Shown here: piece after piece, positions 5,095 to 62,351 of the stretch
Layout: the number at the start of each line of letters is the position of its first letter
Numbering within the stretch: position 1 is the stretch's first letter
Virus record (IMG/VR): IMGVR_UViG_3300022074_000030
Location: 2,077-66,076 of that record
Reading direction: 5' to 3' (one strand)
From: a virus
Taxonomy: Duplodnaviria > Caudoviricetes
DNA: 64,000 nucleotides
Program-made: the position numbers and the translations under genes
The notes under the pieces: model-generated
Database searches by the model: none
Told to the model about the DNA's origin: nothing
The model's input: the letters and a program-made list of their open reading frames with translations, nothing else

Positions 5095-5130
5095 TTTAAT
5101 CTCCTTTATGATTGAGCTGTTTCACTCTGG

Positions 5131-5904: not shown

Positions 5905-5908
5905 GTTT

Positions 5909-9900: not shown

Positions 9901-12590
9901 CCTGCTGTTATCGACACACCGCTGTGTGCAATGTGTTCATCTGCTACGAATCCTGATAAATTATCGTGTCTTATTATTGGTTCGTAATATGTTAAAAGTT
10001 CAGCCGAATCGATAGCCAAATCTCTTGTTGATGCAATAGTGCCTCCACCCTTTAAACCAAATCCTGCAGTTATTGAAACTCCGCTGTGTGCTACATGTTC
10101 ATCTGCCACAAAATTAGTAAGAGCGTCATGATCTATAGATGTGATATTTCCAATATCAGCAATTAATAAAGTTGGTATTCTTGCAGAATCGATAGTGCCT
10201 GTTAAAGATGCTGCAGGTAAATTAGTTAATGATGCACCGGAACCTGAAAATAATGGTGCATTTATTTCTCTATTTGAAATAAATTTAGCACCGGAATGTT
10301 GATAATTGAATGTAGGATTATTGACAATGGCTGAATCACCCCAAGTAAATCCCGCACCATTAAGTGCTGAACTATCTGCTGCGCTATCAGCTATAACAAT
10401 ATTTTTATCTTTTAATACAATGGTTGATGAATTAATTGTAGTTTGAGTACCTTCAACTTGAAGGTTGCCCATAATCTTTACTGTACCAGTAGCATCTCCA
10501 ATTGCGGCTGGATCAATTATTAATTCAGCTGGACCTCTTAATTGTGCAAATGTTGGTGTAGCCGCAGAATCCAAAGGCTGAGGACCTCGAATATCTCCTG
10601 TACTACTATTGTAAGATATGCCGTTACTTGCACTAAAATGTGCTCTAACTTCTGACGATGACGGTCCAGTGTAAGTAAATACTCCTGTTGAATTGTTATA
10701 AGAAAAGCTTCCATCACCACTTACGTCAGTTGCAGAAAATATTTTTTTAATATTTGATGAATCAACTTGTATATCATCAGCATTTGCTATTATACCTTTT
10801 CCACCAACAACATTTAAAGTTCTTGTGGATGCAATATTACCGCCGCCAGTTAAACCAGCACCTGCGGTTATTGAAACACCGCTATGAGCTACATGTTCAT
10901 CAGCTACAAAATCACCGAAATCATCATGTTTGTAAAGTGAATATAATTCTGATGAATCAATACTTAAAGTATTAGTGGTACTGTTATAAGCTAAACCAGC
11001 TCCACCAGTGCCGGCCTCATCGAGTGCAACATTGAAGTCGCTATCAAAATTAGCTTTAGTGTATACTTGTTCAACGTCAAATTCAAATCTACCTGTAGAA
11101 GAATCATAACTTAAATCACCACCTGCAGAGAAATGTGATCTAACTTCTGAAGCACTTGGTCCTGTGTATGTAAATACACCTGTTGAATTATTGTAACTAA
11201 AAGAACCATCACCACCAGCATCAGTTGCGGAAACATAGCCACGTATGGTTTGTGTAGTAGTTGATCTAGCTAGGTCTGAATCAAACCCTAAATATTCTCC
11301 ACTTATAGTGGTTGATGAAAGTGTAGTTATTGTCGCTGAATCAACAGTTGCAGCTGCAGCATTCACTGAAGCATAATTTAACGTAGAACCTGATATGTCT
11401 GTAATTAATGCGCTGTCAGCAGTAATAAGTGGAACTGTAGCTGAATCACCACGTATACTTCCTGTAACTGTTACACCAGAATCTGTTGTTTCAAACCTCT
11501 TTACGTTATTATAATAAAGTTCAACTGCTCCATCATTATTAAAGAAAGCAAAATCTTTGGTGGTTGCTGCATTTAATAATCTAACAGTATTGCCTCTTAA
11601 TTGTAGTTGACCTGTGGAATTTTGTATAATACTGTTAGAGGCGTTGTGCCAAATCTGTAAGTCATTATCATTACCAAATTTTGCTTTGTAGTTATCACCG
11701 AACTCAAGAGCTTTATCTGATTTATCAAATAATATAGCACCTGATGAATCAAATGTAACATCACCAGCAGCAGTAATATTTGTAAATGTAGGATTAGCTG
11801 CAGAGTCTAAAGGTTGTGGTAATCTAAAGTCACCTGTTGTACTATTATAATTTAAACTATTACTTGAACTGAAATAACCTCGAATGTCTTGTTTAAAGTT
11901 TGCTTCTAATTCTGCAGAGTCAATACTCAGTGTGTTAGTAGCATTATTATAAGTTAAACCTACACCTTCAAGAACAGCACTGTCAAGCGTTACATTGAAA
12001 TCAGAATCAAAGTTTTCTTTTGTGTATACCTGTTCAACATCAAATTCAAACACACCAGTGCTGGCATTATATGAAAGATCACCGCCACTGGCAAACATAT
12101 TTCTAATTTGTTGTATAGAACCTTGTAAATTAAAATTTACTGGAGCACCAACACTGTCTGTGGCTGCAAAACCTCCACTTGAATCTTTTAAATTTATGCT
12201 ACCTAAGTGTATTGTAGTTCCACTTAAATATAAATCTCTAAATTTCTTAGCACTATCACCTAAGTCAAATGAACTGTCTAATGTAGGAACAATGTGGCCT
12301 TTAGTAGTAAGACCTGTTACAACTGGTGTTTTATCTGAGTCTATGGCAATAATTAATTTATCATTACCGGGCGAATATTCTCTTGCTAAACCTTGGCCGA
12401 CATCGAATGTAAAGTTCTTAAATGCACTTTCAGCTGAATCATAGACTAATATTTGACCATCGGATTTAGTCGCAACACTGAAGTCTGAAAAGTTATCAAT
12501 GGACAATCCAGTTTGAGCAGTACTTATTGGTGTACCAACTACAATCTTTTTTATGAAAGTTTGTTGGCCTGTGACGACCTTAATTGCCAT
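6900..12590 (-). CDS. Long tail fibre / large virion structural protein (1896 aa)
   Basis: G/S/T-rich with several repeat families, TTNLTEGTNLYYT motifs and a cupredoxin-like insert. Confidence 0.85.
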   Translation of the reverse strand: MAIKVVTGQQTFIKKIVVGTPISTAQTGLSIDNFSDFSVATKSDGQILVYDSAESAFKNFTFDVGQGLAREYSPGNDKLIIAIDSDKTPVVTGLTTKGHIVPTLDSSFDLGDSAKKFRDLYLSGTTIHLGSINLKDSSGGFAATDSVGAPVNFNLQGSIQQIRNMFASGGDLSYNASTGVFEFDVEQVYTKENFDSDFNVTLDSAVLEGVGLTYNNATNTLSIDSAELEANFKQDIRGYFSSSNSLNYNSTTGDFRLPQPLDSAANPTFTNITAAGDVTFDSSGAILFDKSDKALEFGDNYKAKFGNDNDLQIWHNASNSIIQNSTGQLQLRGNTVRLLNAATTKDFAFFNNDGAVELYYNNVKRFETTDSGVTVTGSIRGDSATVPLITADSALITDISGSTLNYASVNAAAATVDSATITTLSSTTISGEYLGFDSDLARSTTTQTIRGYVSATDAGGDGSFSYNNSTGVFTYTGPSASEVRSHFSAGGDLSYDSSTGRFEFDVEQVYTKANFDSDFNVALDEAGTGGAGLAYNSTTNTLSIDSSELYSLYKHDDFGDFVADEHVAHSGVSITAGAGLTGGGNIASTRTLNVVGGKGIIANADDIQVDSSNIKKIFSATDVSGDGSFSYNNSTGVFTYTGPSSSEVRAHFSASNGISYNSSTGDIRGPQPLDSAATPTFAQLRGPAELIIDPAAIGDATGTVKIMGNLQVEGTQTTINSSTIVLKDKNIVIADSAADSSALNGAGFTWGDSAIVNNPTFNYQHSGAKFISNREINAPLFSGSGASLTNLPAASLTGTIDSARIPTLLIADIGNITSIDHDALTNFVADEHVAHSGVSITAGFGLKGGGTIASTRDLAIDSAELLTYYEPIIRHDNLSGFVADEHIAHSGVSITAGFGLKGGGNIASTRDLAIDSAELLTYYEPIIRHDNLTGFVANEHIDHTSVSVTAGFGLKGGGTIASTRDLAIDSAELLTYYEPIIRHDNLSGFVADEHVAHGDVSITAGFGLKGGGTIASTRDLAIDSAELLTYYEPIIRHDNLSGFVADEHVAHTGVSIVAGKGLTGGGNIASSRTIDIDSANVRGMFSAGGDLSYNSGTGEFSFDVESVYTANNFDSDYFFAKDSANTAVERNQHDSDTKNFAVTVAAKVNHVYSGGSGQAYYIDGTESPVINLKLGRTYRFTLSSSDMSNHPFRFYYDAAKTTQYTTGVTTTATYAEIAITEATPPVLHYQCSSHGYMGHALQIGTRNFTGFTTTNLTEGTNLYYTNARVESYINAGEGIDFSSGTISGEDATSSNKGIASFSSDHFDVSSGAVTLKADGIDDTHIDFGTGTNQVNTDDLPEGSTNLYHTPARVRQYSIDSAEAIQLIDSAYVQARQSPGTDSAATITLMNAAGIQAPDGGAAGGLAKLSVGNDSDLKIFHTGSHSVIQDAGTGSLQLQTNNLTVQNAAGTENQITALSGGAVSLFFNNLARLATTDSGVNVTGEVSADSAKFDKLTAAGLIFPTSDGLNNHVIRTDGSGNLSFASVTALSGNIDSAAVIQLVDSDYVQARTAAGTDSAATQAMIDSSIGFQVDSAYIQLRQSGGAITVQEEGSSLSTSATTLNFVGDNVTATGSGATKTITITGGSGTTGTINNVSTSSFSGDNSTKAFTLTEAPADSDDAFVFVNGLLQHTNTYSISGTTLTLDSAPDSSSEIEVRTHQLLSSNLVLRDYKPYLYTIDALSDSVSGQDSSGTTLAYDVGKVEVYLNGARLATGKDFTATNGTSIVFDSAVSAGSIVEVVSLAKASTVEINGIRAIDSDLLTTGSNQIIHTFAAASFRTMKYVAQLEHDSSNSYHAEEILLTHNGTNVAMTTYGQVLLDSTLGTFDADINSGNVRLKLTPTKTNVSFKLREIRTPA
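9360..10130 (-). repeat. Tandem 162-bp (54-aa) coding repeats, ~4.7 copies
   Basis: tgtcttattattgg recurs at 9481, 9643, 9805 and 9967; unit RHDNLSGFVADEHVAHSGVSITAGFGLKGGGTIASTRDLAIDSAELLTYYEPII; a detached partial copy lies near 10820-10930. Confidence 0.95.
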
Positions 12591-22937: not shown

Positions 22938-22945
22938 TATTTATA
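22938..22945 (-). promoter_or_regulatory. T4-type late promoter TATAAATA
   Basis: Exact consensus, intergenic. Confidence 0.75.
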
Positions 22946-26280: not shown

Positions 26281-26288
26281 TATTTATA
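26281..26288 (-). promoter_or_regulatory. T4-type late promoter TATAAATA
   Basis: Exact consensus, intergenic. Confidence 0.75.
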
Positions 26289-35120: not shown

Positions 35121-35128
35121 TATTTATA
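35121..35128 (-). promoter_or_regulatory. T4-type late promoter TATAAATA
   Basis: Exact consensus in the divergent gp48/gp4 gap; a TATAGATA variant at 35094-35101 (+) may serve gp4. Confidence 0.75.
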
Positions 35129-51904: not shown

Positions 51905-52092
51905 TACTCACTCTTCCAAATAGTCCAAACACCATAGGCAATTGCAATGCCTGCTGCAATCTTTGCGAGTGGTGATAAAAATAAAATCATAAGACCAAGA
52001 GCAATACAAACTGCTCCGTCCATACTTGTTCTTTCTTTAATTCTTTCGTTTATCCAACCTTTGACCATTACCATTTCTCCTTGTCTGCCCAA
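51904..52092 (-). CDS. Small two-TM membrane protein (holin candidate)
   Basis: RIKERTS.DG followed by two hydrophobic helices. Confidence 0.55.
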   Translation of the reverse strand: MGRQGEMVMVKGWINERIKERTSMDGAVCIALGLMILFLSPLAKIAAGIAIAYGVWTIWKSE

Positions 52093-52382
52093 TACGCAGC
52101 TGACATCTTTCCTTTAGCGATGTTCTTGCCATGACGAGCTTTAAATGATTTACGTTTTGCTTTCATTCTATCGGACTCTCCTTTCTTAGGAGCGCCTGCA
52201 GTTTCAGCACCTTGTTGACCAAATCGTATAGTCTTAACTTTATCACCTTGTTTAGCAACCACGATATGACTACTTGTAGGATGCCCGGGTGTTCGTTTAG
52301 CTTTATTAAATCCAGCAACTCCTGCTCTTTTTAGTCTAGGGTCTTTTTCTTCTATAAACTTTTTAAATCTATCCAAACTCAT
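52068..52382 (-). CDS. Basic protein (DUF6321-like) with CTS-like N-terminus
   Basis: MSLDRFKKFIEE; IRFGQQG, RKSFKARH, SAAYWA. Confidence 0.65.
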   Translation of the reverse strand: MSLDRFKKFIEEKDPRLKRAGVAGFNKAKRTPGHPTSSHIVVAKQGDKVKTIRFGQQGAETAGAPKKGESDRMKAKRKSFKARHGKNIAKGKMSAAYWADKEKW

Positions 52383-53280
52383 GACCTGCAATCCTTTTCA
52401 TTTGTTTATTAAATTCGGCTTGACCGGGTTTTGTTTTGTATAATTTTTTAGTAAGGCTACTATCTTTCTTACCTTTGATTCTATACTTAAATCCTTTTTC
52501 TTTATGTTCAGGATCTGTAGTCTTTACGAGTCTTCTCTTATATTGTGATTCATAAGACTCTGGACCTTTAGGTGCATCTGTAGCTTCCTTTTGACCGGGT
52601 GTTATTTTCTTCATAAGCTTTACAGATTCTGGTGTACCATAATCATATTTGTATTCTTTAACTTCTCTACCCTGTGCTTTATCTCTATAAGCTTTCTTAA
52701 CTTTAGACACTTCTATTCTATCAACATCTTTTATTAATGAAGGTTGTTTAACAATCTTACGTAATTGTTGTTTAAGTTCACCGGGTGTTTTGGCTTTCAT
52801 GTACATTGTTGGAAGACCATCGATCTCTACTTTAAAGTTTGTATCTTCTCTCCTTAAAGCACGTTTAGCAAGTGCCATTTTAGTATCATCAGCTTTTTTA
52901 AGTATTGTAATAGCATCAGCTTTCTTTTGCATGTCTCTAGCATCTTTACCCATAGTCCTAAACATTAATGGTTTCTTCTTAGTGCTTGGGCCTACTAAAG
53001 CTCTTCGTGTTTTAGCTTTAAACCTCTTCATCATAGACAGTTCGTTCTTTGGTTCGTTTCTATCGAGTTCTGGTTTTGTACCATTACGATTTAATTGCCC
53101 AAATAACTTTAATGCATTACCTGCAAGCTTAGCTTCTTGTGGTCCACGCTTAGCATCAAGATATGCAGCGATCGCCATGTCTCTTCTTTTCTTATCGCTC
53201 TTACCCTTAAACTGAGGAGCCTTAGACTTCTTAAAGTCTTTGATGTAAGAACCGATTCCGTCTTTTGGATCTAATGGCAT
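52369..53280 (-). CDS. Basic modular protein, probable head-internal polyprotein
   Basis: DFKKSKAPQFKGKS..KRR.MAIAAY; YGTPE..MKKITPGQ modules. Confidence 0.6.
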   Translation of the reverse strand: MPLDPKDGIGSYIKDFKKSKAPQFKGKSDKKRRDMAIAAYLDAKRGPQEAKLAGNALKLFGQLNRNGTKPELDRNEPKNELSMMKRFKAKTRRALVGPSTKKKPLMFRTMGKDARDMQKKADAITILKKADDTKMALAKRALRREDTNFKVEIDGLPTMYMKAKTPGELKQQLRKIVKQPSLIKDVDRIEVSKVKKAYRDKAQGREVKEYKYDYGTPESVKLMKKITPGQKEATDAPKGPESYESQYKRRLVKTTDPEHKEKGFKYRIKGKKDSSLTKKLYKTKPGQAEFNKQMKRIAGHEFG

Positions 53281-53628: not shown

Positions 53629-53862
53629 CTATTTTGCGTTCATCGCCTTTGTCATTTGAGTGATGACTCTTTTCATATCACTCTTTGGAATTTGTATATG
53701 TTTACCTTTACCTCTTCCGTAATTGATTTGAAAGCTAGGTCCTTTTTTACCAGCAAATCTATCAATCTGAAAACCAGTTATGTCATCGGTATACATGTTA
53801 GTAGCTTCTTCTAAAGGTTGTGAATTTTCACGTACCTCTTCTATTGCTCTTCTTAAACTCAT
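53629..53862 (-). CDS. Small protein with Glu-rich leader
   Basis: MSLRRAIEEVRE...LEE. Confidence 0.55.
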   Translation of the reverse strand: MSLRRAIEEVRENSQPLEEATNMYTDDITGFQIDRFAGKKGPSFQINYGRGKGKHIQIPKSDMKRVITQMTKAMNAK

Positions 53863-54899
53863 TTCATGCTCCTAACTTTTTTCTTAGTTCCAAAATCCTT
53901 TGTATCAGCTTTGGATATCATACCTTTGATACCTGCGCCAGGATCTGCTTTACCGTGGTAGCCATCAGCGTATCCGGGTGGAAGTTTTTTTACTTTGCCA
54001 CCTTTCATTTTAAATGCTGCAATTGCTGCGTCATGTGCTTTCTTTTCAGCATCAGACATTGCTTCTTTTTTCATAAGTCTGTTTGTAGCTCTGTCTATAC
54101 CGCGTACACGCATTGCAGCTTTTCTTTCAGGACTTTTCATATAATCTTGATCCGGACCGCCTAAACGACTTATTGCATCTTTATTACCTTGATCTTGTCC
54201 TTTATGATACATATCCCTTGCAGCCTTACCCATATAACTCTTTGCTAGATTTTTAGATATTTCTTTTACAGTAGCTTCTGCAGCAACTTTAGCAGGTTTC
54301 ATTTTAGCTTTAGCTAATTCAATACCTTTGTTACGTTTTACTTGATTCTTATGTGCGTCATCTCTTGATATCTTACCTACGTCTGCTCGTACATGCTTTT
54401 TAGATTTATCAATATCAGCCTTTTTAATATATCTGTCTAATGCGCTTTTTGATATTTCTTTTACAGTAGCTTCATTTTGTTTTCTAAGAACTGCTGCAAC
54501 CTGAGGATGTTTATCGATATCTTTGGAAATTTTATTCATAGCTTTAACCGCACCAGTCATATTACCTTTTTTATATCGAGGATCAGATGCAATACCGATA
54601 GCTTGCTTTACATGTTTAGGATCATGTGCTTCACCTACTGATTCTGTTTTCTTCTTACCTTTACCACTAAGATCAGAATCGGCACCGTAGTAAGTACCTT
54701 TACCTTTTCCAATGTATGAATTGACTCTTGCCATTCCCCATTGTTGCGGTGTAGTTCCCGGTCTGTGACCTGTTCTCCAAGCAGCCATGCCTCTATTGTA
54801 TACCTTTTTAAGCGTTCCATAAGATATACCAGACTTAGCCGATTTCTTTTTGAGTCCTTCATTCTCAAGTAACTCATCAAAGGTTTTAAATTTAAGCAT
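53859..54899 (-). CDS. Modular basic protein (DUF5824-like first module)
   Basis: MLKFKTFDELLENE; VYNRGMAAW..GHRPG..QQW..ARVNS; EATVKEISK twice. Confidence 0.65.
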   Translation of the reverse strand: MLKFKTFDELLENEGLKKKSAKSGISYGTLKKVYNRGMAAWRTGHRPGTTPQQWGMARVNSYIGKGKGTYYGADSDLSGKGKKKTESVGEAHDPKHVKQAIGIASDPRYKKGNMTGAVKAMNKISKDIDKHPQVAAVLRKQNEATVKEISKSALDRYIKKADIDKSKKHVRADVGKISRDDAHKNQVKRNKGIELAKAKMKPAKVAAEATVKEISKNLAKSYMGKAARDMYHKGQDQGNKDAISRLGGPDQDYMKSPERKAAMRVRGIDRATNRLMKKEAMSDAEKKAHDAAIAAFKMKGGKVKKLPPGYADGYHGKADPGAGIKGMISKADTKDFGTKKKVRSMK

Positions 54900-56082
54900 C
54901 TGCTTTACTCCTGTTTTTAATTTTTCTTACTTTTGCTCGATCTAACATTCTAGCATGTTTTATTTTATCGACCATTTTTTCTCTTTCAATTTTTTTCTTT
55001 GCGAACTCAACTGCATCTTCACCGTACATTCTTCTATATTTTAAAGTATGTTTACTTGGTTTAGTTTTTGCAGTTGCATCACCAGGTGCTTTTTTATAAG
55101 CAGCTGGATTGTCATCATCATATTTAGAATACTTTTTAAAATGTGCTAATCTTTTTTTCTTAGTTGATTTAGATAGTCCACCATAGTAAGGTGCAGGTTG
55201 TGTACCCGGTGCTTTCTTGACATCTGGGTCTTGCCTAACTTTTTTAGGTGCTTCTTTTTTCTTTTCTACTAGTTGAATATCAGTTAACCATTTTCTATAA
55301 GTCTTTCCATTAGATTCTACAATGACATAATTGCTTCCAAGATTGGTAACATTACCGAGTTCGTCACTGCCCACGAAAGCAACATTATCGCCAATATCAA
55401 ACAGATTTCCTTTAACATATGCCTCTCTTTCTTCAGAGACTGGAGTAAAGTGTAATGTAGTTTTATATTCTTTTTGTTCTTTTAATCCCATTCCACGGCG
55501 TACTTCATTATATACTTTCTTAGCTTCATTATTCGAAACACTTCTAGGTAATCCTTGTGAGAATTGTGTAAAGTCTCCTTTACTCGCCAAACTTCTCATC
55601 TTTGATGCTGACATACCTGATACGTCATCTGCATCCGGATCACGGTCTCCAGCTGAAATTACATTTATTTTGTTAAACTTATAAAGTCCGTGTCTTCCTT
55701 TTACACCATTGTATTTTTCTAATAACTTTTTAAATTCATTAATCCTGTCTGAGCCAACAACCATATTGATATTCTTATATCCTTCTGAATACAATTTAGT
55801 TGCTGCATCAAATACATTCTTAACTTTCTTATCAAGCATTACACTTCTGGCATGCTTTGGAAAAAATTTACGGACTGTCTTAATTTTATAGTTATAGTTC
55901 AAAGGGTTTTTCTTGTTATCTGTAGATTGAGATAGATACACTCTATATGGGTTACTACCTGATTTTTTAGATAACTCATTCATTAACTTTTCATGACCTG
56001 ATGTAGGTGGATTCATACGTCCAAACGTAAAGTATACGGTTTTGTCTTCTTCAATAAGAAATGATCTAAACGAATTTATCAT
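54892..56082 (-). CDS. HIGH-superfamily (cytidylyltransferase-like) nucleotidyltransferase
   Basis: FGRMNPPTSGH, KNPL, VVGSDR, MSASKMR; N-terminus MINSFRSFLIEE. Confidence 0.85.
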   Translation of the reverse strand: MINSFRSFLIEEDKTVYFTFGRMNPPTSGHEKLMNELSKKSGSNPYRVYLSQSTDNKKNPLNYNYKIKTVRKFFPKHARSVMLDKKVKNVFDAATKLYSEGYKNINMVVGSDRINEFKKLLEKYNGVKGRHGLYKFNKINVISAGDRDPDADDVSGMSASKMRSLASKGDFTQFSQGLPRSVSNNEAKKVYNEVRRGMGLKEQKEYKTTLHFTPVSEEREAYVKGNLFDIGDNVAFVGSDELGNVTNLGSNYVIVESNGKTYRKWLTDIQLVEKKKEAPKKVRQDPDVKKAPGTQPAPYYGGLSKSTKKKRLAHFKKYSKYDDDNPAAYKKAPGDATAKTKPSKHTLKYRRMYGEDAVEFAKKKIEREKMVDKIKHARMLDRAKVRKIKNRSKADA

Positions 56083-57176
56083 TAACCTTTTTTCCTCTGT
56101 ACTTCTTTCTTACGTACGTCCTTAAATAATCTTTTAGCTAGTCTTTTTATTCTCTGCTGTAGCGCCGGCTTTTCTAATCTCTTTTCGATTTCTTTCTTCC
56201 TAGCAAATGTCAATTCGCCTTTAGGTATACCACGTGTAAGTTTCTTTGCAATTTGTGCACGGGCTTGTCGATTTGATCTTTTTTCAAGAGTCTTTTTATT
56301 AGCCATCTTTCTCATAGCTCTTTGACGACCAATTTTAATTCTCGTCTTTAAACGCTTCATAAGTCTTGAGCGTTTCATTCTTTGTTGTAGGTTTAACGCT
56401 TCATCTACATCATTTGGCATCTCATCTGGCCAAGTAGCTTCAATACTTTCTTTTTTAATACCTCTGCCAAGAGCCGTGAGATTAATATCGAGACGACCAT
56501 ACTTTCCATACATAGAACCTGGTCCTCCCAGATCCTTTACAAATTGTTTAGCATTATTTTCATTTTTGAAATATGCTGTAATATCATCTTCTGGATATGC
56601 AACACCTTTATTTTTTTTCAAGCTTGAAAAAATAAGTTCTGATTGAGAATCATTAAGACGATCTAAATACTCATCATCAATCATAACATAAGCTTTATAG
56701 TCTTTATGACTAGCTCCTAGTTCATTATCAATTAGTCTTTTGTTTTTTCTCATTACTTTTACAATAGGTAACATTTTTTCATTAATTGACATGTCTTCTT
56801 TCATCAAACCGTTTAAGCTTTCCTTAGGATACATTCTAAATACTTTAGCACGAGCTTTATCAATATACTTTTTCTTATTACGTTCATAATCACCAGGATT
56901 TTTTGCTAGTGTTCTAGCGTGTTTAGTTATGTCAGATGGTTTAGTTGGTTTAAGAACCGAGGCTTCTTTTTTGACAATTTCTTTGTCAGTCTTAACCATA
57001 CGTATGCCGACCTTACCGTCAGGCTTAACATATTTTTCTGGTTTTCTATCTGCTGATTGTACGCTCTCATTTCCGTGATATTGCTTCTTACGTTTCTGAG
57101 CGTAGTATTTGACTTCATCTGGTTCGCCTGGCTTATAATCTACAGACGTCATATGTTTAAAATCTAATGGTGCCAT
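56082..57176 (-). CDS. Modular basic protein
   Basis: Start probably ATG 57176 (TAATG coupling); C-terminal EALNLQQRMKR Arg/Lys-rich module. Confidence 0.6.
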   Translation of the reverse strand: MAPLDFKHMTSVDYKPGEPDEVKYYAQKRKKQYHGNESVQSADRKPEKYVKPDGKVGIRMVKTDKEIVKKEASVLKPTKPSDITKHARTLAKNPGDYERNKKKYIDKARAKVFRMYPKESLNGLMKEDMSINEKMLPIVKVMRKNKRLIDNELGASHKDYKAYVMIDDEYLDRLNDSQSELIFSSLKKNKGVAYPEDDITAYFKNENNAKQFVKDLGGPGSMYGKYGRLDINLTALGRGIKKESIEATWPDEMPNDVDEALNLQQRMKRSRLMKRLKTRIKIGRQRAMRKMANKKTLEKRSNRQARAQIAKKLTRGIPKGELTFARKKEIEKRLEKPALQQRIKRLAKRLFKDVRKKEVQRKKG

Positions 57177-58405
57177 TAGTTCCTCCCCGGCTTGTCCCAT
57201 CCTTTTATAATTTCTGGTGAAAAGTTGGCATATGAGAATTCCATACGATCAACTATTTTCACTGCATCACCACCAAGTTTGTCAATGGCCACATACCCTT
57301 CTTGACCCGTTACCTTATACCCATCGCGAGTCTTAAGAAACGTTTGCGCGCCATTTAACTTATTAAGTATATTTATAATTTTTAATTTTGCTAGAACTAT
57401 AGATTTTTGTAATTCAAACATCATTTCTAAACTTATTTTATTTTGTGGTGAAAAGAATTTAAGTATATCGTTTAATTTTTGTACTTGAGCTGATTTACCT
57501 TTTTCGCTCTTTCTACTATCTATCTCTTTTTGAAACTTCAATTTTATGTGTGATATTAACTTCGTAACGTGGGATCTGGTGTTACCAATGACTTCACCTT
57601 TTCGTACAAATGTATTATTAAACGTTTCAATAAGTTGAGCAAGCTTTTCGTTATTTTCGAGAGTACGTAAGGTAGTACTAGAAATTTTATTAAAAATTTT
57701 GCCAGCATTGCTAAGATGTGCATTGACTTCCTCCGTATCTTTTTTAGTCATAGTAAATTGAGTCATATCTCTAAGCATTGCATCTTGTGACCAAACATTT
57801 TTAGTATTCTTAAACTTTGTAGTATCTACACCGTATGATGCTTTCATAGTTTCAAATGTTTTACCTGTATATGTAGTATGCCATACTATACCAATTTTTG
57901 CAGCCTTAACTTTTTTAGCAGCTTCAGTTCCAGCAGGTACTGCATATACTATTGTATTGGGATGAAAGGTAACATAAGGTTTACCTTTTAGTTTTTTAGT
58001 TTTAACATCGCTTGAATCAAATAAGAAGTCACCTTGTACTACTCCTTTGATACCGAGTTCCGGTAAATACTGAAGAGCTTTTTTTAGTTTAGCATTAAGA
58101 TCACCGCCAGTGTCGTCGTCAATGTCAGAATTAGTTTTATATACCTTTGGCGTGGCGTTGAAGATGCCTTTCTTAGCGACAAAAAATTTACCGTCACGAG
58201 GATCAGTACCAGCGAAAACAGCGGGTGCACCGTCCCACTTAACACTAACGTTTCCATCTTTAACTCCTGCTAACATGTCTCTCAATGAACGTAACGCAAG
58301 TATAGCTTGCCTTGTTCCATCAACACCGCCGTATAGAACCTTGTCCTCGATGTGAGTCATGTGTGTATTCTTTTGTTCTGATATATATTCTTTAAAATTA
58401 ATCAT
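57176..58405 (-). CDS. DUF6267-like protein with ATP-dependent ligase-type motifs
   Basis: KNTHMTHIED, VKWDGAPA (KxDG), QGDFLF, EGYV, VKIVDR.EFS; N-terminus MINFKEYISE. Confidence 0.7.
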   Translation of the reverse strand: MINFKEYISEQKNTHMTHIEDKVLYGGVDGTRQAILALRSLRDMLAGVKDGNVSVKWDGAPAVFAGTDPRDGKFFVAKKGIFNATPKVYKTNSDIDDDTGGDLNAKLKKALQYLPELGIKGVVQGDFLFDSSDVKTKKLKGKPYVTFHPNTIVYAVPAGTEAAKKVKAAKIGIVWHTTYTGKTFETMKASYGVDTTKFKNTKNVWSQDAMLRDMTQFTMTKKDTEEVNAHLSNAGKIFNKISSTTLRTLENNEKLAQLIETFNNTFVRKGEVIGNTRSHVTKLISHIKLKFQKEIDSRKSEKGKSAQVQKLNDILKFFSPQNKISLEMMFELQKSIVLAKLKIINILNKLNGAQTFLKTRDGYKVTGQEGYVAIDKLGGDAVKIVDRMEFSYANFSPEIIKGWDKPGRN

Positions 58406-59832
58406 TATACGTATGCCTTTATATAAACTGAAGAATCTTCAGTTTGTGATGCTGCAATATTAAATACGTTTGTAGCAAAATTATTTCTTGCAGAACTATT
58501 TGCTTTCATAATAGCATCACAAACATATGTTGTTGCTAACTTTGAATGAACATCTGCTGCTTTTCTAGTTTTTGGATAGTCATAAAAATCTACTTCTTTT
58601 ATATTAGTATCTGCTCTCTGTACTGCACTCCAAAAGTTTTTTGTTTCAGCACCGATTTTTCCTGTAGATAACTGCGTATGAATTTTTCTAGCATCCATTG
58701 CTAACTTTTGGTTGTCAGGTAAATTTCTTGCTCTTAAAAATTCTTTTGCAGCAAATCTAATTTGATCATAACCAACTTTACCACCTCTTGCGGTTTTACC
58801 GCCAATTTCCATATTCACTGCAGTGAAATCACTGAATGATCTAAAATCGAGTTCTTGTCCATCAATGTAAACTGTTGCACTTTTACTTGACCAAAATGTT
58901 TTCTTTGCTAGTACAAGTTTATTAAACTTTCTTTGTTTTTCTGGTAACCTATCTAAATTATATACGTCTAATTTTATTTTACCATCAAGTTTAAATTCCG
59001 GAACTAACTTAAGAGATATAGGAACGATATCACGATCTCTAAAAGCTTTAGATAAACTTATATTTAATGAAGCAACTGAATGGCTTTGCAATACTTTACT
59101 AACATCGACATTTCTTTTAATTGCATAAATATCTCCAGGATTCCACTTATCATTACTTAACCCAGGTCTTCCTTCAGATTTATAAGCTGCAGCTTTCAGA
59201 TTATAAATTTCTTTCATTTTAGTTTTACCACGATATAAAATATGATCTTTATTTACGTATCCTTTTTGAATTAATTTTTTACCTATCATATAACCTGATC
59301 TATGCCATTGTGGATGATCATCAGTTAACTTAAGAAGAAGATCGAATTTTGTATCAACGTCAACGTCTCTATAAGCATCTTCCATTACACTCTTTTGCGT
59401 ATAAAATTCATAAGGTTTATTTGTTCCATTTTTTATAAGTGCTGCTAACATAACACATTGTAAAGATTCGCCTTCAGATGTTTTACCTGATTCTCCACCG
59501 CCTTTACCTTTACCACCAAAATATGTTGACTTTGCTATCTTAGGCAATTCTATTTTGCCTATATCAGTATCAACTTCTATAGAAGGTAATTGCTTAACTA
59601 GTTTAATATCTTTTTGAACTGCAGCTTTGTAATCATTAATGATTTTTTTATTATCACTAGTATTTTTAATAATAAATTCTTTTTGGTCTGGAGATCTAAT
59701 AAGTTTTATTTTTCCAATAGCTGACATCACTAAATCGAATCTTTCGGGTCTATCACGCCAACCAGAATTATCAAGTGCGTTAAACCCCATGCGCTCCTCC
59801 AAGTATCTCATGTATGATTTGAATTTTAACAT
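58405..59832 (-). CDS. Putative PD-(D/E)XK-like nuclease
   Basis: ESLQC, DKWNPGDIY, PISLK; N-terminus MLKFKSYMRYLEE. Confidence 0.5.
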   Translation of the reverse strand: MLKFKSYMRYLEERMGFNALDNSGWRDRPERFDLVMSAIGKIKLIRSPDQKEFIIKNTSDNKKIINDYKAAVQKDIKLVKQLPSIEVDTDIGKIELPKIAKSTYFGGKGKGGGESGKTSEGESLQCVMLAALIKNGTNKPYEFYTQKSVMEDAYRDVDVDTKFDLLLKLTDDHPQWHRSGYMIGKKLIQKGYVNKDHILYRGKTKMKEIYNLKAAAYKSEGRPGLSNDKWNPGDIYAIKRNVDVSKVLQSHSVASLNISLSKAFRDRDIVPISLKLVPEFKLDGKIKLDVYNLDRLPEKQRKFNKLVLAKKTFWSSKSATVYIDGQELDFRSFSDFTAVNMEIGGKTARGGKVGYDQIRFAAKEFLRARNLPDNQKLAMDARKIHTQLSTGKIGAETKNFWSAVQRADTNIKEVDFYDYPKTRKAADVHSKLATTYVCDAIMKANSSARNNFATNVFNIAASQTEDSSVYIKAYV

Positions 59833-59837
59833 GATTC

Positions 59838-59845
59838 TATTTATA
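59838..59845 (-). promoter_or_regulatory. T4-type late promoter TATAAATA
   Basis: Exact consensus immediately upstream of ATG 59832. Confidence 0.8.
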
Positions 59846-59859
59846 ATAGTTTACAACTT

Positions 59860-59892
59860 AAAAAAGCGCCTCAGACTCGCATTGAGGCGCTT
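59860..59892 (-). terminator. Rho-independent terminator
   Basis: AAGCGCCTCA/TGAGGCGCTT stem followed by a T run on the minus strand. Confidence 0.85.
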
Positions 59893-59915
59893 CTTATCAC
59901 CGAAAGGAGGGTGAA

Positions 59916-60383
59916 TTAAAATCTTCCGAGAAATCTTGCGATGTGATGTACCCAAGGTAAGAGCATTACTGCCATAAAGAGATTTGCACCACTATGAGCT
60001 ATAGCTATTCGTAGCGTATCACCTTTTGGCATGCCGTCTGATACAAAGAAACCTGCGAGCCATATAGTACCAGTAGTTCCTATGTTTGCTCCAAGAACTG
60101 CGGCAATGGCTGCTGGTAGTGGGAGAGCTCCACTTGCAACAAGAGCTATGATTGCAGTGGTAGATAATGATGAAGATTGCCAGAGCAGTGTCATAACAAT
60201 TCCACCTATAAACATATAAATCGGATTACCTAAAAAGAAGTTTAAGTGTTCTAAGTTTCCCATGGATTTCATTCCACCGGAAAACATTTTAAGACCTATA
60301 TAAAAAACTATAAGTCCAACAAGCGCCGTTATAACGGGATTACCTAGTTCCATCTTACATACCTTTTTAATTAATTCGTTCAT
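59916..60383 (-). CDS. Na+/phosphate cotransporter family protein, single repeat
   Basis: GLKMFS.GMK, WQSSS, VLGANIGTT, AIAH; hydrophobic helices. Confidence 0.8.
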   Translation of the reverse strand: MNELIKKVCKMELGNPVITALVGLIVFYIGLKMFSGGMKSMGNLEHLNFFLGNPIYMFIGGIVMTLLWQSSSLSTTAIIALVASGALPLPAAIAAVLGANIGTTGTIWLAGFFVSDGMPKGDTLRIAIAHSGANLFMAVMLLPWVHHIARFLGRF

Positions 60384-61391: not shown

Positions 61392-62351
61392 CTAAGCTAC
61401 TTCCGCAAATTTTAATGCTGTATTAAGAGCATTTCTTTTTTTAATTTGGTTTCCACCAAACCATGATGAGTAAAGTCTGTTGTCAGAATTTCTACCTTGT
61501 AGATGATCTGTAACATACGTTACTGAATTAAATGCCTGCCACCAAGAACCTTCAGCAAACTTTGCGCCAGGTTGTTGCTCTAATGCATCATAACATGCAA
61601 TGGCATTCTTGGAAAGAGTTTCCATAGAAAGAGATTTATTTTGTACTCTCTTATCCGCAGTTCTTGGATAAACTGTATTGTAGAACTCAATAAGAGAATC
61701 AATGTTGTATCTCTTAGAACCAAGAAACTCAGCCATTTCTTTATAAGTCTTCAACTTATCGGAAGCGATGCCAAGAGCTTTCTTAACTTCGTTTGCGTTG
61801 AATTCAACTCTATGGCCGACTTTTACAGACCTTTGAGCCTGTGCCTCGAGTGAAAGTGAAAGTGTATTGTTACATACAACTCTGATTGGTGTAAATCTAA
61901 TATCGATAGACTTACCATATAAGTGAGGGTTTGAGAAAAGCAAGTAAGACTCAACTTTATCACCGCCGAAGATATCAAATGACTCTTTGACTTTAGCCAA
62001 AGCCCATACCATCTGTCCGCCTTTCAATGAACCTGCTGTATGCATTTCCATATCACCGGCGAGAACATACTCTGAAAAGAATTCAAAAGCTTGTTCGTTC
62101 TGAACTGGATTCCAGATCTGACCGATGTTAGTCAAGACTTTATCGTCTGAACTTCTTACTAAGGCTTTCATGCCTGTAGCAACTTTCTTACCGTTTGGTA
62201 GAGTTGCGTATGAATCAATCTGATCGACCGTCCAGTCAAGACCAGCTTTCTTCATCATTTGGTTCGGTGTAAGATCGTTGCTGACTTCTACACCTAGGCC
62301 GTGCCACGGTACTTCACCTGCATACGCCATTGTTTCAACTTGATGTGCCAT
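61392..62351 (-). CDS. DUF932 / TIGR03299-like protein
   Basis: MAH.VETMAY..PWHGLG, AGLDW, PVQN..AF.F, TPIRVVCNNTL, W.AFN.VT. Confidence 0.85.
   Translation of the reverse strand: MAHQVETMAYAGEVPWHGLGVEVSNDLTPNQMMKKAGLDWTVDQIDSYATLPNGKKVATGMKALVRSSDDKVLTNIGQIWNPVQNEQAFEFFSEYVLAGDMEMHTAGSLKGGQMVWALAKVKESFDIFGGDKVESYLLFSNPHLYGKSIDIRFTPIRVVCNNTLSLSLEAQAQRSVKVGHRVEFNANEVKKALGIASDKLKTYKEMAEFLGSKRYNIDSLIEFYNTVYPRTADKRVQNKSLSMETLSKNAIACYDALEQQPGAKFAEGSWWQAFNSVTYVTDHLQGRNSDNRLYSSWFGGNQIKKRNALNTALKFAEVA

What the first reader, a model, noticed from the sequence alone, without database searches (positions are those of the whole stretch)
54892..59832. Nuclease-like, ligase-like and HIGH nucleotidyltransferase triad, all with CTS-like leaders
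Seen: 57176..58405 has KWDG, QGDF, EGYV and VKIV in the order of motifs I, III, IV and V of covalent (ligase/capping) nucleotidyltransferases. 54892..56082 has TxGH and SASKMR of NMNAT/PPAT-like enzymes. 58405..59832 has PGD..ISLK, resembling PD-(D/E)XK nucleases. Inference: a virion-delivered module for nucleic-acid cut/repair or nucleotide cofactor restoration, for example countering anticodon nucleases or NAD-depleting defences. I know of no assigned function for the DUF6267 plus cytidylyltransferase pair.
Basis: partly seen in the sequence, partly recalled or inferred. Interest (0 to 1): 0.78.

Follow-up and report, generated by a model that had tools for sequence, protein, structure and literature searches.

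The report
Head-tagged ligase-like and nucleotidyltransferase phage operon
A marine T4-like phage has a late operon whose core is an unrecognised ligase-type enzyme paired with a nucleotide-transferring enzyme, both carrying the short tag that phage T4 uses to load proteins into its head, so they are probably injected with the DNA, but what they act on is untested.

Summary
All motifs lie where stated, and they are invariant across relatives. DUF6267 (57176-58405) folds as the nucleotidyltransferase domain of ATP-dependent polynucleotide ligases. RNA ligases are its best structural matches. K56, D126, E369-G370 and K383 are invariant in 68 sequences. It has no OB domain and carries a roughly 130-residue helical insert. 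The 54892-56082 protein is a divergent HIGH-type nucleotidyltransferase, and published proteomes find its cyanophage orthologues in virions. Both genes, and the 475-aa gene, begin with leaders matching the T4 IPII/IPIII capsid-targeting peptide. The operon follows a TATAAATA box.

The ligase-like/transferase pair is obligate: 54 of 54 testable loci, and fused in 7 of 150 representatives. The 475-aa "nuclease-like" gene is not an obligate partner. It sits upstream in 18 of 64 loci, in a slot that holds many unrelated, often leader-bearing genes. Its fold matched nothing solved, so the nuclease reading is unproven.

Four complete relatives have no recognised ligase gene. NAD rescue and anticodon-nuclease repair remain untested guesses.

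This scan reached much the same reading earlier on other phage DNA. I found no paper naming DUF6267.

The parts
59861..59895 (-). Terminator-like hairpin (13-bp stem followed by a U run) that ends the upstream Na/Pi-cotransporter-like gene
   Evidence: -19 kcal/mol, z -3.0, 0 of 200 shuffles fold as well. Sequence.
59838..59845 (-). TATAAATA box 5 nt upstream of the first ATG of the operon. That this is the T4 late-promoter consensus is recalled, not tested.
   Evidence: 12 of the 13 TATAAATA matches in the window lie on the coding (minus) strand, but the total of 13 is not above chance (10.96 expected).
58405..59832 (-). 475-aa protein (PHROG 1462; homologue of cyanophage T4-GC533, for example Syn1_159). 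Confident predicted fold with no solved match. Invariant ExxQC, DKWNPGDI, ISLK, E342 and ARGG. A facultative occupant of the variable slot upstream of DUF6267.
59794..59832 (-). Leader MLKFKSYMRYLEE of the 475-aa protein. It is CTS-like and ends in L-E-E.
   Evidence: By the strict regex, 18 of 46 distinct N-termini in the family are CTS-like. This longer-spaced variant does not fit the regex.
57176..58405 (-). DUF6267 protein, 409 aa. It has a ligase-superfamily nucleotidyltransferase domain (about residues 12-210 plus 354-395), a helical insert (about 221-350) and no OB domain.
58376..58405 (-). Leader MINFKEYISE of DUF6267: aromatic residues at positions 4 and 7, I at 8, E at 10, as in T4 IPIII. 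pLDDT is below 50 for residues 1-11.
   Evidence: 29 of 39 distinct N-termini CTS-like
58229..58240 (-). Motif I, KWDG. K56 is the predicted AMP-accepting lysine.
57251..57301 (-). Motifs IV (EGYV, residues 369-372) and V (VKIV, residues 382-385), with R387 nearly invariant
56082..57200 (-). 372-aa very basic protein with no family. Its C-terminal part of about 110 residues is a conserved Lys/Arg-rich module found just upstream of the transferase gene in relatives.
   Evidence: (93 K+R); matched in 71 of 80 loci, mostly over residues 263-372.
54892..56082 (-). Divergent HIGH-type (T/HxGH ... SxSKxR) nucleotidyltransferase (PHROG 3041/395; orthologue of cyanophage T4-GC190), followed by a small domain (about residues 222-276) and a basic tail
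56047..56082 (-). Leader MINSFRSFLIEE of the transferase
   Evidence: 31 of 34 distinct N-termini CTS-like. F5, L9 and E11 conserved in at least 90% of sequences.
53859..54899 (-). DUF5824 protein, 346 aa, with leader MLKFKTFDELLENE. In many relatives this domain is fused to the C-terminus of the transferase.
   Evidence: PHROG 3041 spans both; P0246; 18 of 32 transferase relatives carry DUF5824

Best explanation
This is a late, translationally coupled operon of head-targeted cargo proteins in a marine T4-like (Kyanoviridae) myophage.

Its fixed core is a pair of enzymes:
- DUF6267 is a previously unassigned member of the ATP-dependent polynucleotide-ligase (covalent nucleotidyltransferase) superfamily. 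It has an RNA-ligase-like catalytic domain, no OB domain and a large helical insert.
- Its partner is a divergent HIGH-motif nucleotidyltransferase.

In this lineage both enzymes, and the 475-aa protein upstream, carry a T4-type capsid-targeting leader. They would be built into the prohead core, trimmed after (L/I)-x-E by the gp21-type protease, and ejected with the DNA.

In the host, DUF6267 would take AMP on Lys56 and seal breaks in nucleic acid. The substrate could be nicks in the incoming genome or cut RNA. The HIGH enzyme would act in the same pathway, making, recycling or transferring a nucleotide-linked cofactor or end.

The 475-aa protein is one of many alternative leader-bearing proteins found in a hypervariable slot upstream of the pair. 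Its activity is unknown.

Shown here: the fold, the invariant motifs, the linkage and fusions, the similarity of the leaders to T4's, and the absence of other recognisable ligases in relatives.

Inferred: catalysis, packaging of DUF6267, injection, the substrate, and the role of the partner.
For: Fold:
- The AlphaFold2 model of DUF6267 has pLDDT 93.5 and pTM 0.90.
- In the search of 48,161 chains, all 11 of the 11 listed rows with at least 160 aligned residues are ATP-dependent ligases. They include REL1 (Z 8.2, 184 aligned), NgrRnl (7.9, 185), T4 Rnl2 (7.6, 170), Trl1 (7.6, 195), T4 Rnl1 (6.8, 164) and a DNA ligase (6.6, 170).
- In the second look, 41 of 50 rows are ligases.

Motifs: K56, D58, G59, D126, E369, G370 and K383 are invariant in 68 sequences.

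Partnership with the transferase:
- The transferase lies downstream of DUF6267 in 54 of 54 loci with at least 2.5 kb downstream.
- It follows in 72 of 80 loci chosen through the 475-aa family.
- 7 of 150 representative DUF6267 proteins are fused to the transferase domain, in either order.
- S-PM2 p139 joins the C-terminal half of DUF6267 to the transferase.

Leaders:
- They match T4 IPII/IPIII and IPI.
- They fit the published rules: residues 4 and 7 matter for targeting, residues 8 and 10 for processing, and gp21 cuts after L/I-x-E (PMC9026906, passages read).
- They are conserved in 29 of 39 DUF6267 N-termini and 31 of 34 transferase N-termini, against 25 of 696 background ORFs.

Protease: a gp21-type protease (Peptidase_S77) is present in 2 of 2 complete relatives.

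Virion proteomes (passages read):
- Transferase orthologues were found in virions of S-SM1 (PMC3037559), S-SZBM1 (PMC9146016) and S-CREM2 (PMC10665884).
- S-SZBM1_140, which carries a leader, was detected. S-SZBM1_141 (DUF6267), which lacks one, is not among the rows I read.

Operon: a TATAAATA box lies directly before the operon, and consecutive genes overlap by 1-25 nt.

No other ligase: the Pfam models for DNA ligase, Rnl1, Rnl2 and NAD-dependent ligase hit 0 of 4 complete Kyanoviridae genomes. The first three hit the T4 control.
Against: - Foldseek alone gave no PDB match at E <= 0.001 for DUF6267. The Z scores of about 8 are in the range the tool calls middling.
- No Pfam ligase model and no PDB sequence profile detects the family.
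- Motif V has one lysine, not two.
- There is no OB or other known nucleic-acid-binding domain.
- Cyanophage DUF6267 orthologues lack the leader: 0 of 4 examined, namely S-SZBM1_141, Syn1_160, S-PM2 p138 and Syn9 gp183.
- DUF6267 is not among the virion proteins I could read for S-SZBM1 and S-CREM2. Packaging of DUF6267 is therefore at most lineage-specific and has no direct proof.
- The window's own contig is a 66-kb fragment with no protease gene on it.
- The transferase matches no solved structure by sequence profile.
Confidence: 0.5

Rival explanations
1. DUF6267 is simply the phage's intracellular nick-sealing ligase, standing in for T4 gp30 in replication and recombination. It is not an injected protein. 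The N-terminal peptide is either not a working targeting signal or only leads to incidental packaging.
For: - No other ligase-family gene is found in 4 of 4 complete Kyanoviridae genomes, whereas T4 has three.
- In cyanophages the block follows the replication genes gp43-uvsX-gp41-mazG.
- Cyanophage orthologues have no leader.
- They are not in the virion lists I read.
- DNA ligases also appear among the structural matches (Z 6.0-6.6).
Against: - In this lineage the leader is conserved immediately before the catalytic domain in 29 of 39 distinct N-termini.
- The operon has a TATAAATA box and sits among other leader-bearing basic proteins.
- There is no OB domain.
- RNA ligases score highest, although within about 2 Z units of the DNA ligases.
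- The obligate HIGH-transferase partner has no counterpart in replicative ligation.
Confidence: 0.2
2. The pair is specifically an RNA (tRNA) repair kit against host anticodon nucleases, like T4 Pnk plus Rnl1.
For: - The best structural matches are RNA ligases: REL1, NgrRnl, Rnl2 and Trl1.
- HTVC008M has a P-loop kinase (gp129) between DUF6267 and the transferase.
- One of 10 long representatives (P0241) fuses an AAA_33/Zeta-type kinase to DUF6267.
- RNA ligases in phages usually travel with kinases and nucleotidyltransferases (PMC7824862, passages read).
Against: - The kinase is rare: 1 of 80 loci. It is absent from this window.
- The kinase domain matches no polynucleotide kinase in the PDB by sequence.
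- No 2',3'-phosphoesterase was seen.
- There are no tRNA genes in the window.
- Z differences between RNA and DNA ligases are small.
Confidence: 0.12
3. The transferase is an NMNAT that restores NAD+ against NAD-depleting defences.
For: - It has the HIGH motif and an SxSKxR motif.
- There are weak NCBIfam hits to NadD/NMNAT models at the HIGH motif.
- The S-CREM2 paper calls it an NMNAT homologue (PMC10665884, section read).
Against: - NCBIfam scores are 12-19 bits against cut-offs of 112-397.
- There is no PDB NMNAT match by profile.
- No Nampt or Nudix partner appears in the operon.
- The constant partner is a ligase-fold enzyme, not an NAD-salvage enzyme.
Confidence: 0.07
4. The proteins are mainly structural or DNA-condensing internal head proteins whose enzyme folds are relics.
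For: All are Lys/Arg-rich (66-93 K+R each). They lie among small basic proteins, as the T4 internal proteins do.
Against: Every catalytic-motif residue is invariant across 68 and 32 diverse sequences. That is not expected of relic enzymes.
Confidence: 0.04

Closest known systems
ATP-dependent RNA ligases without an OB domain: T. brucei REL1 (1xdn), Naegleria NgrRnl (5cot, 6vt3), T4 Rnl2 (2hvq), fungal Trl1 ligase domain (6n0t, 8rbj)
   Same: The predicted nucleotidyltransferase fold is the same (Z 7.2-8.2 over 170-208 residues). Motif I KxDG, an acidic motif III, motif IV EG(Y/F)V and a motif V lysine are colinear and invariant.
   Different: - A helical insert of about 130 residues (221-350) lies between the front and back halves of the domain.
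- An N-terminal helix carries an invariant H18 in HxxHxED.
- Motif V has one Lys plus R387 instead of KxK.
- It has none of the accessory domains of Rnl1, Rnl2 or Rnl5.
- It is invisible to the Pfam ligase models.
- It has an obligate HIGH-transferase partner.
- In this lineage it carries a capsid-targeting leader.
T4 internal proteins IPI, IPII and IPIII and Alt, loaded through the capsid-targeting sequence
   Same: There is an N-terminal peptide of about 10 residues with aromatic residues at positions 4 and 7, I/L at 8 and E at 10. The proteins are basic, the promoter is of the late type, and the genes sit in a variable locus.
   Different: The cargo here comprises two nucleotidyltransferase-type enzymes of about 400 aa, not small inhibitors or an ADP-ribosyltransferase. 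Packaging and cleavage have not been shown for this phage.
HIGH-superfamily nucleotidyltransferases (Pfam CTP_transf_like: NMNAT/NadD, PPAT, glycerol-3-phosphate cytidylyltransferase)
   Same: It has a (T/H)xGH motif and a distal SxSKxR motif, which corresponds to ISSTxxR (that correspondence is recalled). 25 of 32 family members hit CTP_transf_like at E <= 0.01.
   Different: - The window protein is below Pfam's cut-off (17.2 against 21 bits).
- No equivalog-level match exists.
- It has an extra small domain, a basic tail and often DUF5824.
- Its substrate is unknown.
T4 Pnk-Rnl1 tRNA repair and bacterial Pnkp-Rnl-Hen1
   Same: A ligase-fold enzyme is associated with a P-loop kinase in some relatives (HTVC008M gp129 and the P0241 fusion).
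   Different: The kinase is absent from this window and rare elsewhere (1 of 80 loci). No phosphoesterase or methyltransferase is present.
Type II restriction endonucleases with a PD...SxK active site (Cfr10I/NgoMIV type; recalled, not fetched)
   Same: The 475-aa family has an invariant PGD at the start of a strand and an invariant SLK at the end of a later strand. The nearest named ESM Atlas clusters are HpaII-type and HaeIII-type endonucleases, at score 0.85, which is a lead only.
   Different: No fold, Pfam or PDB-profile match was found. Helices separate the two strands, unlike the usual hairpin. The acidic residue of (D/E)xK is a serine.

Membership tests
Covalent nucleotidyltransferase (ATP-dependent ligase/capping) superfamily: DUF6267 | Nucleotidyltransferase-domain fold | tested here: met
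   The model has pLDDT 93.5. All 11 of the 11 listed rows with at least 160 aligned residues are ligases (Z 6.2-8.2). 41 of 50 rows are ligases in the second look. Foldseek alone gave none at E <= 0.001.
Covalent nucleotidyltransferase (ATP-dependent ligase/capping) superfamily: DUF6267 | Motif I KxDG with an invariant lysine, and colinear motifs III, IV and V | tested here: met
   K56, D58, G59, G125, D126, E369, G370 and K383 are invariant in 68 sequences. Motif V has a single lysine.
Covalent nucleotidyltransferase (ATP-dependent ligase/capping) superfamily: DUF6267 | Formation of a covalent lysyl-NMP intermediate | not testable with these tools
   Needs a labelling assay with alpha-32P ATP, NAD+ or GTP and a K56A control.
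DNA ligase / mRNA capping enzyme branch | C-terminal OB-fold domain with motif VI | tested here: not met
   The protein ends 24 residues after motif V (VKIV 382-385 of 409 aa). The model shows only one short helix after it.
Known RNA/DNA ligase sequence families (Pfam PF01068, PF09414, PF09511, PF01653) | Match to the family model | tested here: not met
   The Pfam scan gives only DUF6267. Six-frame searches of 4 complete relatives with the four models gave 0 of 4, although DUF6267 genes are present there.
T4-type CTS-loaded internal head proteins | N-terminal peptide of about 10 residues with aromatic residues at 4 and 7 and (L/I)-x-E at 8-10 | tested here: met
   MINFKEYISE compares with T4 MKTYQEFIAE. 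The rules come from PMC9026906. Conservation is 29 of 39 and 31 of 34 distinct N-termini, against 25 of 696 background ORFs.
T4-type CTS-loaded internal head proteins | gp21-type prohead protease encoded by the phage | tested here: inconclusive
   None on the window's own 66-kb fragment. Present in 2 of 2 complete relatives, C48C1 and HTVC008M.
T4-type CTS-loaded internal head proteins | Presence in virions with the leader removed | not testable with these tools
   Published only for transferase orthologues of cyanophages. DUF6267 and T4-GC533 orthologues are not in the lists I could read. Table S8 of Sullivan 2010 is closed.
HIGH-superfamily nucleotidyltransferases (Pfam CTP_transf_like) | Pfam model above the gathering score | tested here: inconclusive
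   The window protein scores 17.2 bits, below 21. 25 of 32 relatives match at E <= 0.01, best 5.2e-8. Fused relatives score 30.3 and 30.5 bits.
HIGH-superfamily nucleotidyltransferases (Pfam CTP_transf_like) | (H/T)xGH motif and distal ISSTxxR-like motif | tested here: met
   T27, G29, H30, S158, K161 and R163 are invariant in 32 sequences.
HIGH-superfamily nucleotidyltransferases (Pfam CTP_transf_like) | Rossmann-like fold of the family | not tested
NMN/NaMN adenylyltransferase (NadD/NadR/NadM) | Equivalog-level match to curated NMNAT models | tested here: not met
   The window protein scores 12.4 bits against a cut-off of 167. Its relative P0304 scores 19.3 against 112.
PD-(D/E)XK nucleases: 475-aa protein | Restriction-endonuclease-like fold | tested here: inconclusive
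   The whole 475-residue model (pLDDT 89.5) gave no match: Foldseek none at E <= 0.001, VIA best Z 3.8. The tool warns that single domains of models over 400 residues can be missed.
PD-(D/E)XK nucleases: 475-aa protein | Catalytic D ... (D/E)xK motif | tested here: inconclusive
   D234 and K275 are invariant, but the middle acidic residue is an invariant serine, S273. A relocated glutamate (E122 or E342, both invariant) is possible but unshown.

The most novel reading that the evidence does not exclude
DUF6267 is the 'missing' polynucleotide ligase of the ocean's T4-like phages. In this pelagiphage-like lineage it is delivered ready-made from the capsid with its HIGH-type partner. The partner makes or recycles the adenylyl donor (an NAD-like dinucleotide), so that the pair can reseal nicked incoming DNA, or cut RNA, before any phage gene is expressed. 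This would be the first virion-injected ligase. The slot upstream of the pair would be a hypervariable arsenal of injected proteins, equivalent to the T4 internal-protein loci.
Probability: 0.25. Interest if true: 0.85.

Novelty: new variant of a known kind. Interest (0 to 1): 0.66.

Why it matters
DUF6267 is very widespread in marine viral sequence:
- All 8000 scored candidates in the 90%-identity clusters matched at E <= 1e-5.
- 2571 clusters at 50% identity matched at E <= 0.001.
- 417 phage records hold it.

Yet no paper in the searched library names it.

If it is an active ligase, it fills a gap in the replication and repair gene set of the Kyanoviridae. Four complete genomes of that family have no recognised ligase.

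It would also define a new ligase family with an unusual insert and an obligate nucleotidyltransferase partner. That could be useful as an enzyme and as a test of how ligases choose AMP donors.

The conserved T4-type leaders also suggest that marine T4-like phages inject enzymes and swap such cargo in a variable slot. That would extend the T4 internal-protein model to the most abundant ocean myophages.

Tried and rejected
Sequence searches against solved structures:
- Single sequences gave nothing useful. DUF6267 hit only HsdR at E 0.047. The transferase and the 475-aa protein hit nothing.
- Profiles A1, A2, A3 and A4 gave none, or only spurious hits: eS8, S-layer proteins, and MJ0951 at E 0.1.

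The 475-aa protein:
- Foldseek against the PDB, the VIA wide search and the VIA second look gave no match.
- BFVD returned only uncharacterised cyanophage and Campylobacter-phage proteins.
- A Pfam scan of all 55 family members gave no nuclease family.
- NCBIfam gave nothing.
- The ESM Atlas gave only a 0.85 lead to restriction-enzyme clusters.
- The genome-contig scan gave 3 MAG contigs, probably phage DNA, so there is no cellular context.

The transferase: the ESM Atlas returned only viral CTP_transf_like clusters.

Kinase fusion P0241: it matched only shikimate kinase and zeta toxin weakly in the PDB.

Complex prediction of DUF6267 with the transferase domain: no verdict, score 0.01. I do not use this either way.

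Regulatory and RNA scans:
- Sigma-70-type promoters were not above shuffles (19 against 25.1), and the terminator scan missed the 9-nt-loop hairpin.
- There are no tRNA or tmRNA genes in the window.

Literature:
- 'DUF6267' gave 0 papers.
- 'cytitidyltransferase' gave 0 papers.
- 'cyanophage + virion + RNA ligase + proteome' gave nothing on this family.
- A search for the RNA-repair survey by title did not find it.
- PMC7238727 mentions only a glycerol-3-phosphate cytidylyltransferase.
- PMC12801897 did not list the transferase in its virion proteome.
- Supplements are closed. Table S8 of PMC3037559, which lists virion detection per T4-GC, may bear on whether T4-GC71 and T4-GC533 are packaged.

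I considered and rejected treating the three genes as a fixed triad.

Full report
**What the window is.** The window is a fragment of an uncultured virus. The record is 66,076 bases, and CheckV estimates it as 37% complete. Its nearest annotated records are marine T4-like myophages of the family Kyanoviridae: Phage C48C1, Pelagibacter phage HTVC008M, the Methylophilales phage Melnitz and the cyanomyophages. G+C is 30-40% throughout, and nearly all genes lie on the minus strand.

**The observation.** Every quoted motif is present at the residues and coordinates listed in the observation check.

Pfam identifies 57176-58405 as DUF6267 (E 1.5e-101). It gives 54892-56082 a sub-threshold CTP_transf_like hit (17.2 bits against a cut-off of 21) and gives 58405-59832 nothing.

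PHROGs place the three in families 455, 3041/395 ('cytidyltransferase') and 1462. The profile of PHROG 455 holds DUF6267 and the transferase in one protein. The profile of PHROG 3041 holds the transferase and the DUF5824 domain of the next gene, 53859-54899.

**DUF6267 has a ligase fold.**
- A search of 1.84 billion representatives found 2571 clusters at E <= 0.001.
- In an alignment of 68 members (34-60% identical), these residues are invariant: H18, K56, D58, G59, P61, G66, K79, G125, D126, N150, Y154, G172, H176, T177, N264, E369, G370, K383, F390 and N394. The lysine and aspartate-glycine of motif I, the acidic residue of motif III, the EG of motif IV and the lysine of motif V are therefore all fixed.
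- The AlphaFold2 model is confident (pLDDT 93.5, pTM 0.90), and only residues 1-11 fall below pLDDT 50.
- Foldseek found no PDB match at E <= 0.001. Its weak rows included archaeal DNA ligases and the Naegleria RNA ligase.
- The Foldseek-independent search of 48,161 chains listed 50 rows. All 11 rows with at least 160 aligned residues are ATP-dependent ligases:
  - REL1 1xdn: Z 8.2, rmsd 4.5, 184 aligned
  - NgrRnl 5cot: 7.9, 4.0, 185
  - T4 Rnl2 2hvq: 7.6, 3.9, 170
  - Trl1 6n0t: 7.6, 4.0, 195
  - Trl1 9r3w: 7.3, 4.6, 210
  - 9qw7: 6.8, 4.2, 193
  - T4 Rnl1 9do4: 6.8, 3.6, 164
  - Sulfolobus DNA ligase 2hiv: 6.6, 4.3, 170
  - Rnl3 5d1o: 6.4, 4.8, 199
  - 8uce: 6.3, 4.7, 188
  - 3qwu: 6.2, 5.0, 197
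- The other 39 rows are short alignments (55-130 aligned residues) to unrelated proteins, most of them small helical bundles or designed helical proteins.
- The second look at Foldseek's top 1000 gave ligases in 41 of 50 rows.
- These Z values are in the range the tool calls middling, so the fold alone is not decisive. The fold together with the invariant colinear motifs makes the superfamily assignment strong.

The protein differs from known ligases in several ways:
- It ends 24 residues after motif V and has no OB domain.
- It has a helical insert (about residues 221-350) and an N-terminal helix with HxxHxED.
- Motif V has one lysine.
- No Pfam ligase model or PDB sequence profile detects it.

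**The transferase.** In 32 relatives, F20, G21, R22, N24, P25, T27, G29, H30, G110, D112, R113, G145, R147, D148, S158, K161 and R163 are invariant. 25 of the 32 hit CTP_transf_like at E <= 0.01, and 18 of the 32 carry DUF5824 on the same chain.

Nothing more specific could be shown:
- NCBIfam NMNAT models score 12-19 bits against cut-offs above 100.
- Profiles found no solved relative.

It is a HIGH-type nucleotidyltransferase of unknown substrate. Calling it an NMNAT is not justified by my tests.

**The 475-aa protein.**
- It has 153 relatives at E <= 0.001 in the 90% clusters.
- Its invariant motifs are ExxQC at 122-126, DKWNPGDI at 228-235, ISLK at 272-275, E342 and ARGG at 348-351.
- Its model is confident (pLDDT 89.5).
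- No solved structure matched: Foldseek gave none at E <= 0.001, VIA gave a best Z of 3.8, and the second look gave a best Z of 2.5. The tool warns that domains of models over 400 residues can be missed.
- BFVD shows the fold is shared by uncharacterised proteins of cyanomyophages and of Campylobacter phages.
- My profile hits Syn1_159 (T4-GC533, E 1.8e-37) and Syn9 gp182 (E 3.9e-10).
- In the model, PGD lies at the start of strand 235-239 and SLK at the end of strand 269-274, with two helices between them. This is not the usual hairpin.
- The only positive hint of a nuclease is that the nearest named ESM Atlas clusters are HpaII-type and HaeIII-type endonucleases, at score 0.85, which the tool calls a lead only.

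The nuclease reading is therefore open. I put it at roughly even odds or below.

**Linkage.** Among the 80 best viral loci found through the 475-aa family:
- All 80 have DUF6267 next downstream on the same strand.
- 72 of 80 have the transferase after that. The 8 without it have under 2.1 kb of contig left.

Among the 80 best loci found through DUF6267 itself:
- The transferase follows in 54 of 54 loci with at least 2.5 kb downstream.
- The 475-aa family lies upstream in only 18 of 64 loci with at least 1.5 kb upstream.

In the other 46 loci the upstream ORFs fall into at least 24 unrelated groups, the largest with 9 members. 15 of the 46 carry a leader-like N-terminus, against 25 of 696 background ORFs.

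Both samples are the best matches to this window. They contain near-duplicates and are not independent.

Fusions:
- 7 of the 150 best DUF6267 representatives contain the transferase domain, before or after DUF6267. None contains the 475-aa family.
- P0246 has DUF6267, the transferase and DUF5824 in the window's gene order.
- S-PM2 p139 joins the C-terminal half of DUF6267 to the transferase.

In annotated cyanophages the block follows gp43-uvsX-gp41-mazG. So the pair is obligate, and the 'triad' is the pair plus a variable neighbour.

**Leaders and packaging.** From the T4 record, IPII and IPIII begin MKTYQEFIAE and IPI begins MKTFKEF.

The review PMC9026906 (passages read) states three things:
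- The first 10 residues of IPIII suffice for head targeting.
- Residues 4 and 7 matter for targeting, and residues 8 and 10 for processing.
- gp21 cuts after L/I-x-E.

DUF6267 begins MINFKEYISE, directly followed by the conserved KNTHMTHIED. The transferase begins MINSFRSFLIEE, the 475-aa protein MLKFKSYMRYLEE and the DUF5824 protein MLKFKTFDELLENE.

In the related loci the leader is kept in these proportions of distinct N-termini:
- DUF6267: 29 of 39
- Transferase: 31 of 34
- 475-aa family: 18 of 46 by the strict regex
- Background ORFs: 25 of 696

A Peptidase_S77 (gp21) gene is present in C48C1 and HTVC008M (2 of 2). It is not on the window's own fragment.

The operon starts after a terminator-like hairpin (-19 kcal/mol, z -3.0) with a TATAAATA box 5 nt before the ATG. 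That this box is the T4 late-promoter consensus is recalled. Its count in the window, 13, is not above chance, though 12 of the 13 lie on the coding strand. Consecutive genes overlap by 1, 25, 1 and 8 nt.

Published proteomes found transferase orthologues in virions:
- T4-GC190 in S-SM1 (PMC3037559, passages read)
- S-SZBM1_140, with its downstream neighbour 139 (PMC9146016, passages and table rows read)
- S-CREM2 ORF154, with ORFs 155 and 156 (PMC10665884, section and table read)

There is a useful natural contrast. S-SZBM1_140 and Syn9 gp184 carry leaders (MRFRQFIIE, MKKFSAFLSE). The cyanophage DUF6267 proteins do not: they begin at the conserved KN(T)HLEHLED block, or in Syn9 gp183 after an unrelated N-terminal stretch (0 of 4 with a leader). 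DUF6267 is also absent from the virion lists I read.

This fits the leader being the packaging signal. It implies that packaging of DUF6267 and of the 475-aa protein is specific to the pelagiphage-like lineage of this window. No experiment shows it.

**No other ligase.** I took a lead from earlier notes of this scan and tested it. The Pfam models for ATP-dependent DNA ligase, Rnl2-type ligase, Rnl1-type ligase and NAD-dependent ligase hit 0 of 4 complete Kyanoviridae genomes (C48C1, HTVC008M, Syn9, Syn1). The first three hit the T4 control. DUF6267 is thus the only ligase-superfamily gene recognisable in these phages. This supports real catalytic use, and it also feeds the rival that DUF6267 is simply the replicative or repair ligase.

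**Other partners.**
- HTVC008M gp129, between DUF6267 and the transferase, is a P-loop kinase.
- P0241 fuses a similar AAA_33/Zeta-type kinase to DUF6267.
- The kinase is absent from the window and found in 1 of 80 loci.
- The C-terminal part (about 110 residues) of the window's 372-aa protein is a Lys/Arg-rich module. It recurs just upstream of the transferase in 71 of 80 loci.

**Mechanism.** I commit to the following, at about 0.5 confidence.
- The pair is a nucleic-acid break-sealing system.
- The ligase-like enzyme uses Lys56.
- In this lineage the pair is loaded into the head by the T4-type leader and injected.
- The HIGH enzyme acts on the nucleotide donor or on an adenylylated end.

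The substrate (DNA nick or RNA), the donor (ATP or a dinucleotide) and the packaging of DUF6267 are inferences. The rivals are listed separately.

**Comparison and novelty.** The closest known enzymes are the OB-less RNA ligases (REL1, NgrRnl, Rnl2, Trl1). The closest known delivery system is the T4 CTS/internal-protein system. This case is a new variant of both: an unassigned ligase family with an insert and an obligate HIGH-type partner, carried as CTS cargo.

'DUF6267' occurs in 0 papers of the searched library. The cytidylyltransferase is known as a core cyanophage gene and as a virion protein.

Earlier follow-ups of this scan on other genomes reached much the same reading. I used them as leads and tested two of their claims here: the absence of other ligases, and the claim that the nuclease-like gene is not a constant partner.

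Noticed in passing
window 59916-60383 (-): A 155-aa ORF matches only the first part of the Na+/Pi cotransporter family (Pfam Na_Pi_cotrans, E 3.2e-16, profile positions 2-89 of 137). It ends at the hairpin before the operon. It may be a half-size auxiliary phosphate-transport gene.
   Followed up: no
window 61392-62351 (-): A DUF932 protein (E 1.7e-36; PHROG 1221) lies upstream of the operon among small ORFs.
   Followed up: no
L094-L172: ORF directly upstream of DUF6267: The slot upstream of DUF6267 is hypervariable. There are at least 24 unrelated ORF groups in 46 loci, and 15 of the 46 have T4 CTS-like N-termini. This recalls the variable internal-protein loci of T-even phages.
   Followed up: partly
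L002 (HTVC008M) 9717-10379 (-), gp129: A P-loop kinase (GGPGSGKT) is annotated as hypothetical. It lies between the DUF6267 gene (gp127) and the cytidyltransferase gene (gp130). A similar kinase is fused to DUF6267 in P0241.
   Followed up: partly
L007 (S-PM2) 5004-6783, p138 and p139: DUF6267 is split over two annotated genes. The second gene, annotated Cytitidyltransferase, is the C-terminal half of DUF6267 fused to the transferase. This could be a frameshift, a sequencing error or a real split.
   Followed up: partly
L001 (C48C1) 6212-7555 (-), CDS0089: The annotated start of the cytidyltransferase falls inside the conserved FGRxNPPTxGH motif (the protein begins MNPPTIGH). The true start is probably further upstream.
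   Followed up: no
window 56082-57200 (-), residues about 263-372: The Lys/Arg-rich C-terminal module of the 372-aa ORF is conserved in 71 of 80 related loci, just upstream of the transferase gene. In C48C1 it is a separate 123-aa gene with its own CTS-like leader (MLSFKQFVSE).
   Followed up: partly
window 52068-52391 (-): A small basic protein with leader MSLDRFKKFIEE matches PHROG 7595. It also matches PHROG 220 ('minor head protein and DNA pilot') weakly (E 1.1e-5).
   Followed up: no
window, all TATAAATA sites: 12 of the 13 TATAAATA matches are on the minus (coding) strand, and several lie just upstream of start codons (for example 2003-2010, 22938-22945, 26281-26288, 35121-35128). The total is not above shuffles.
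   Followed up: no
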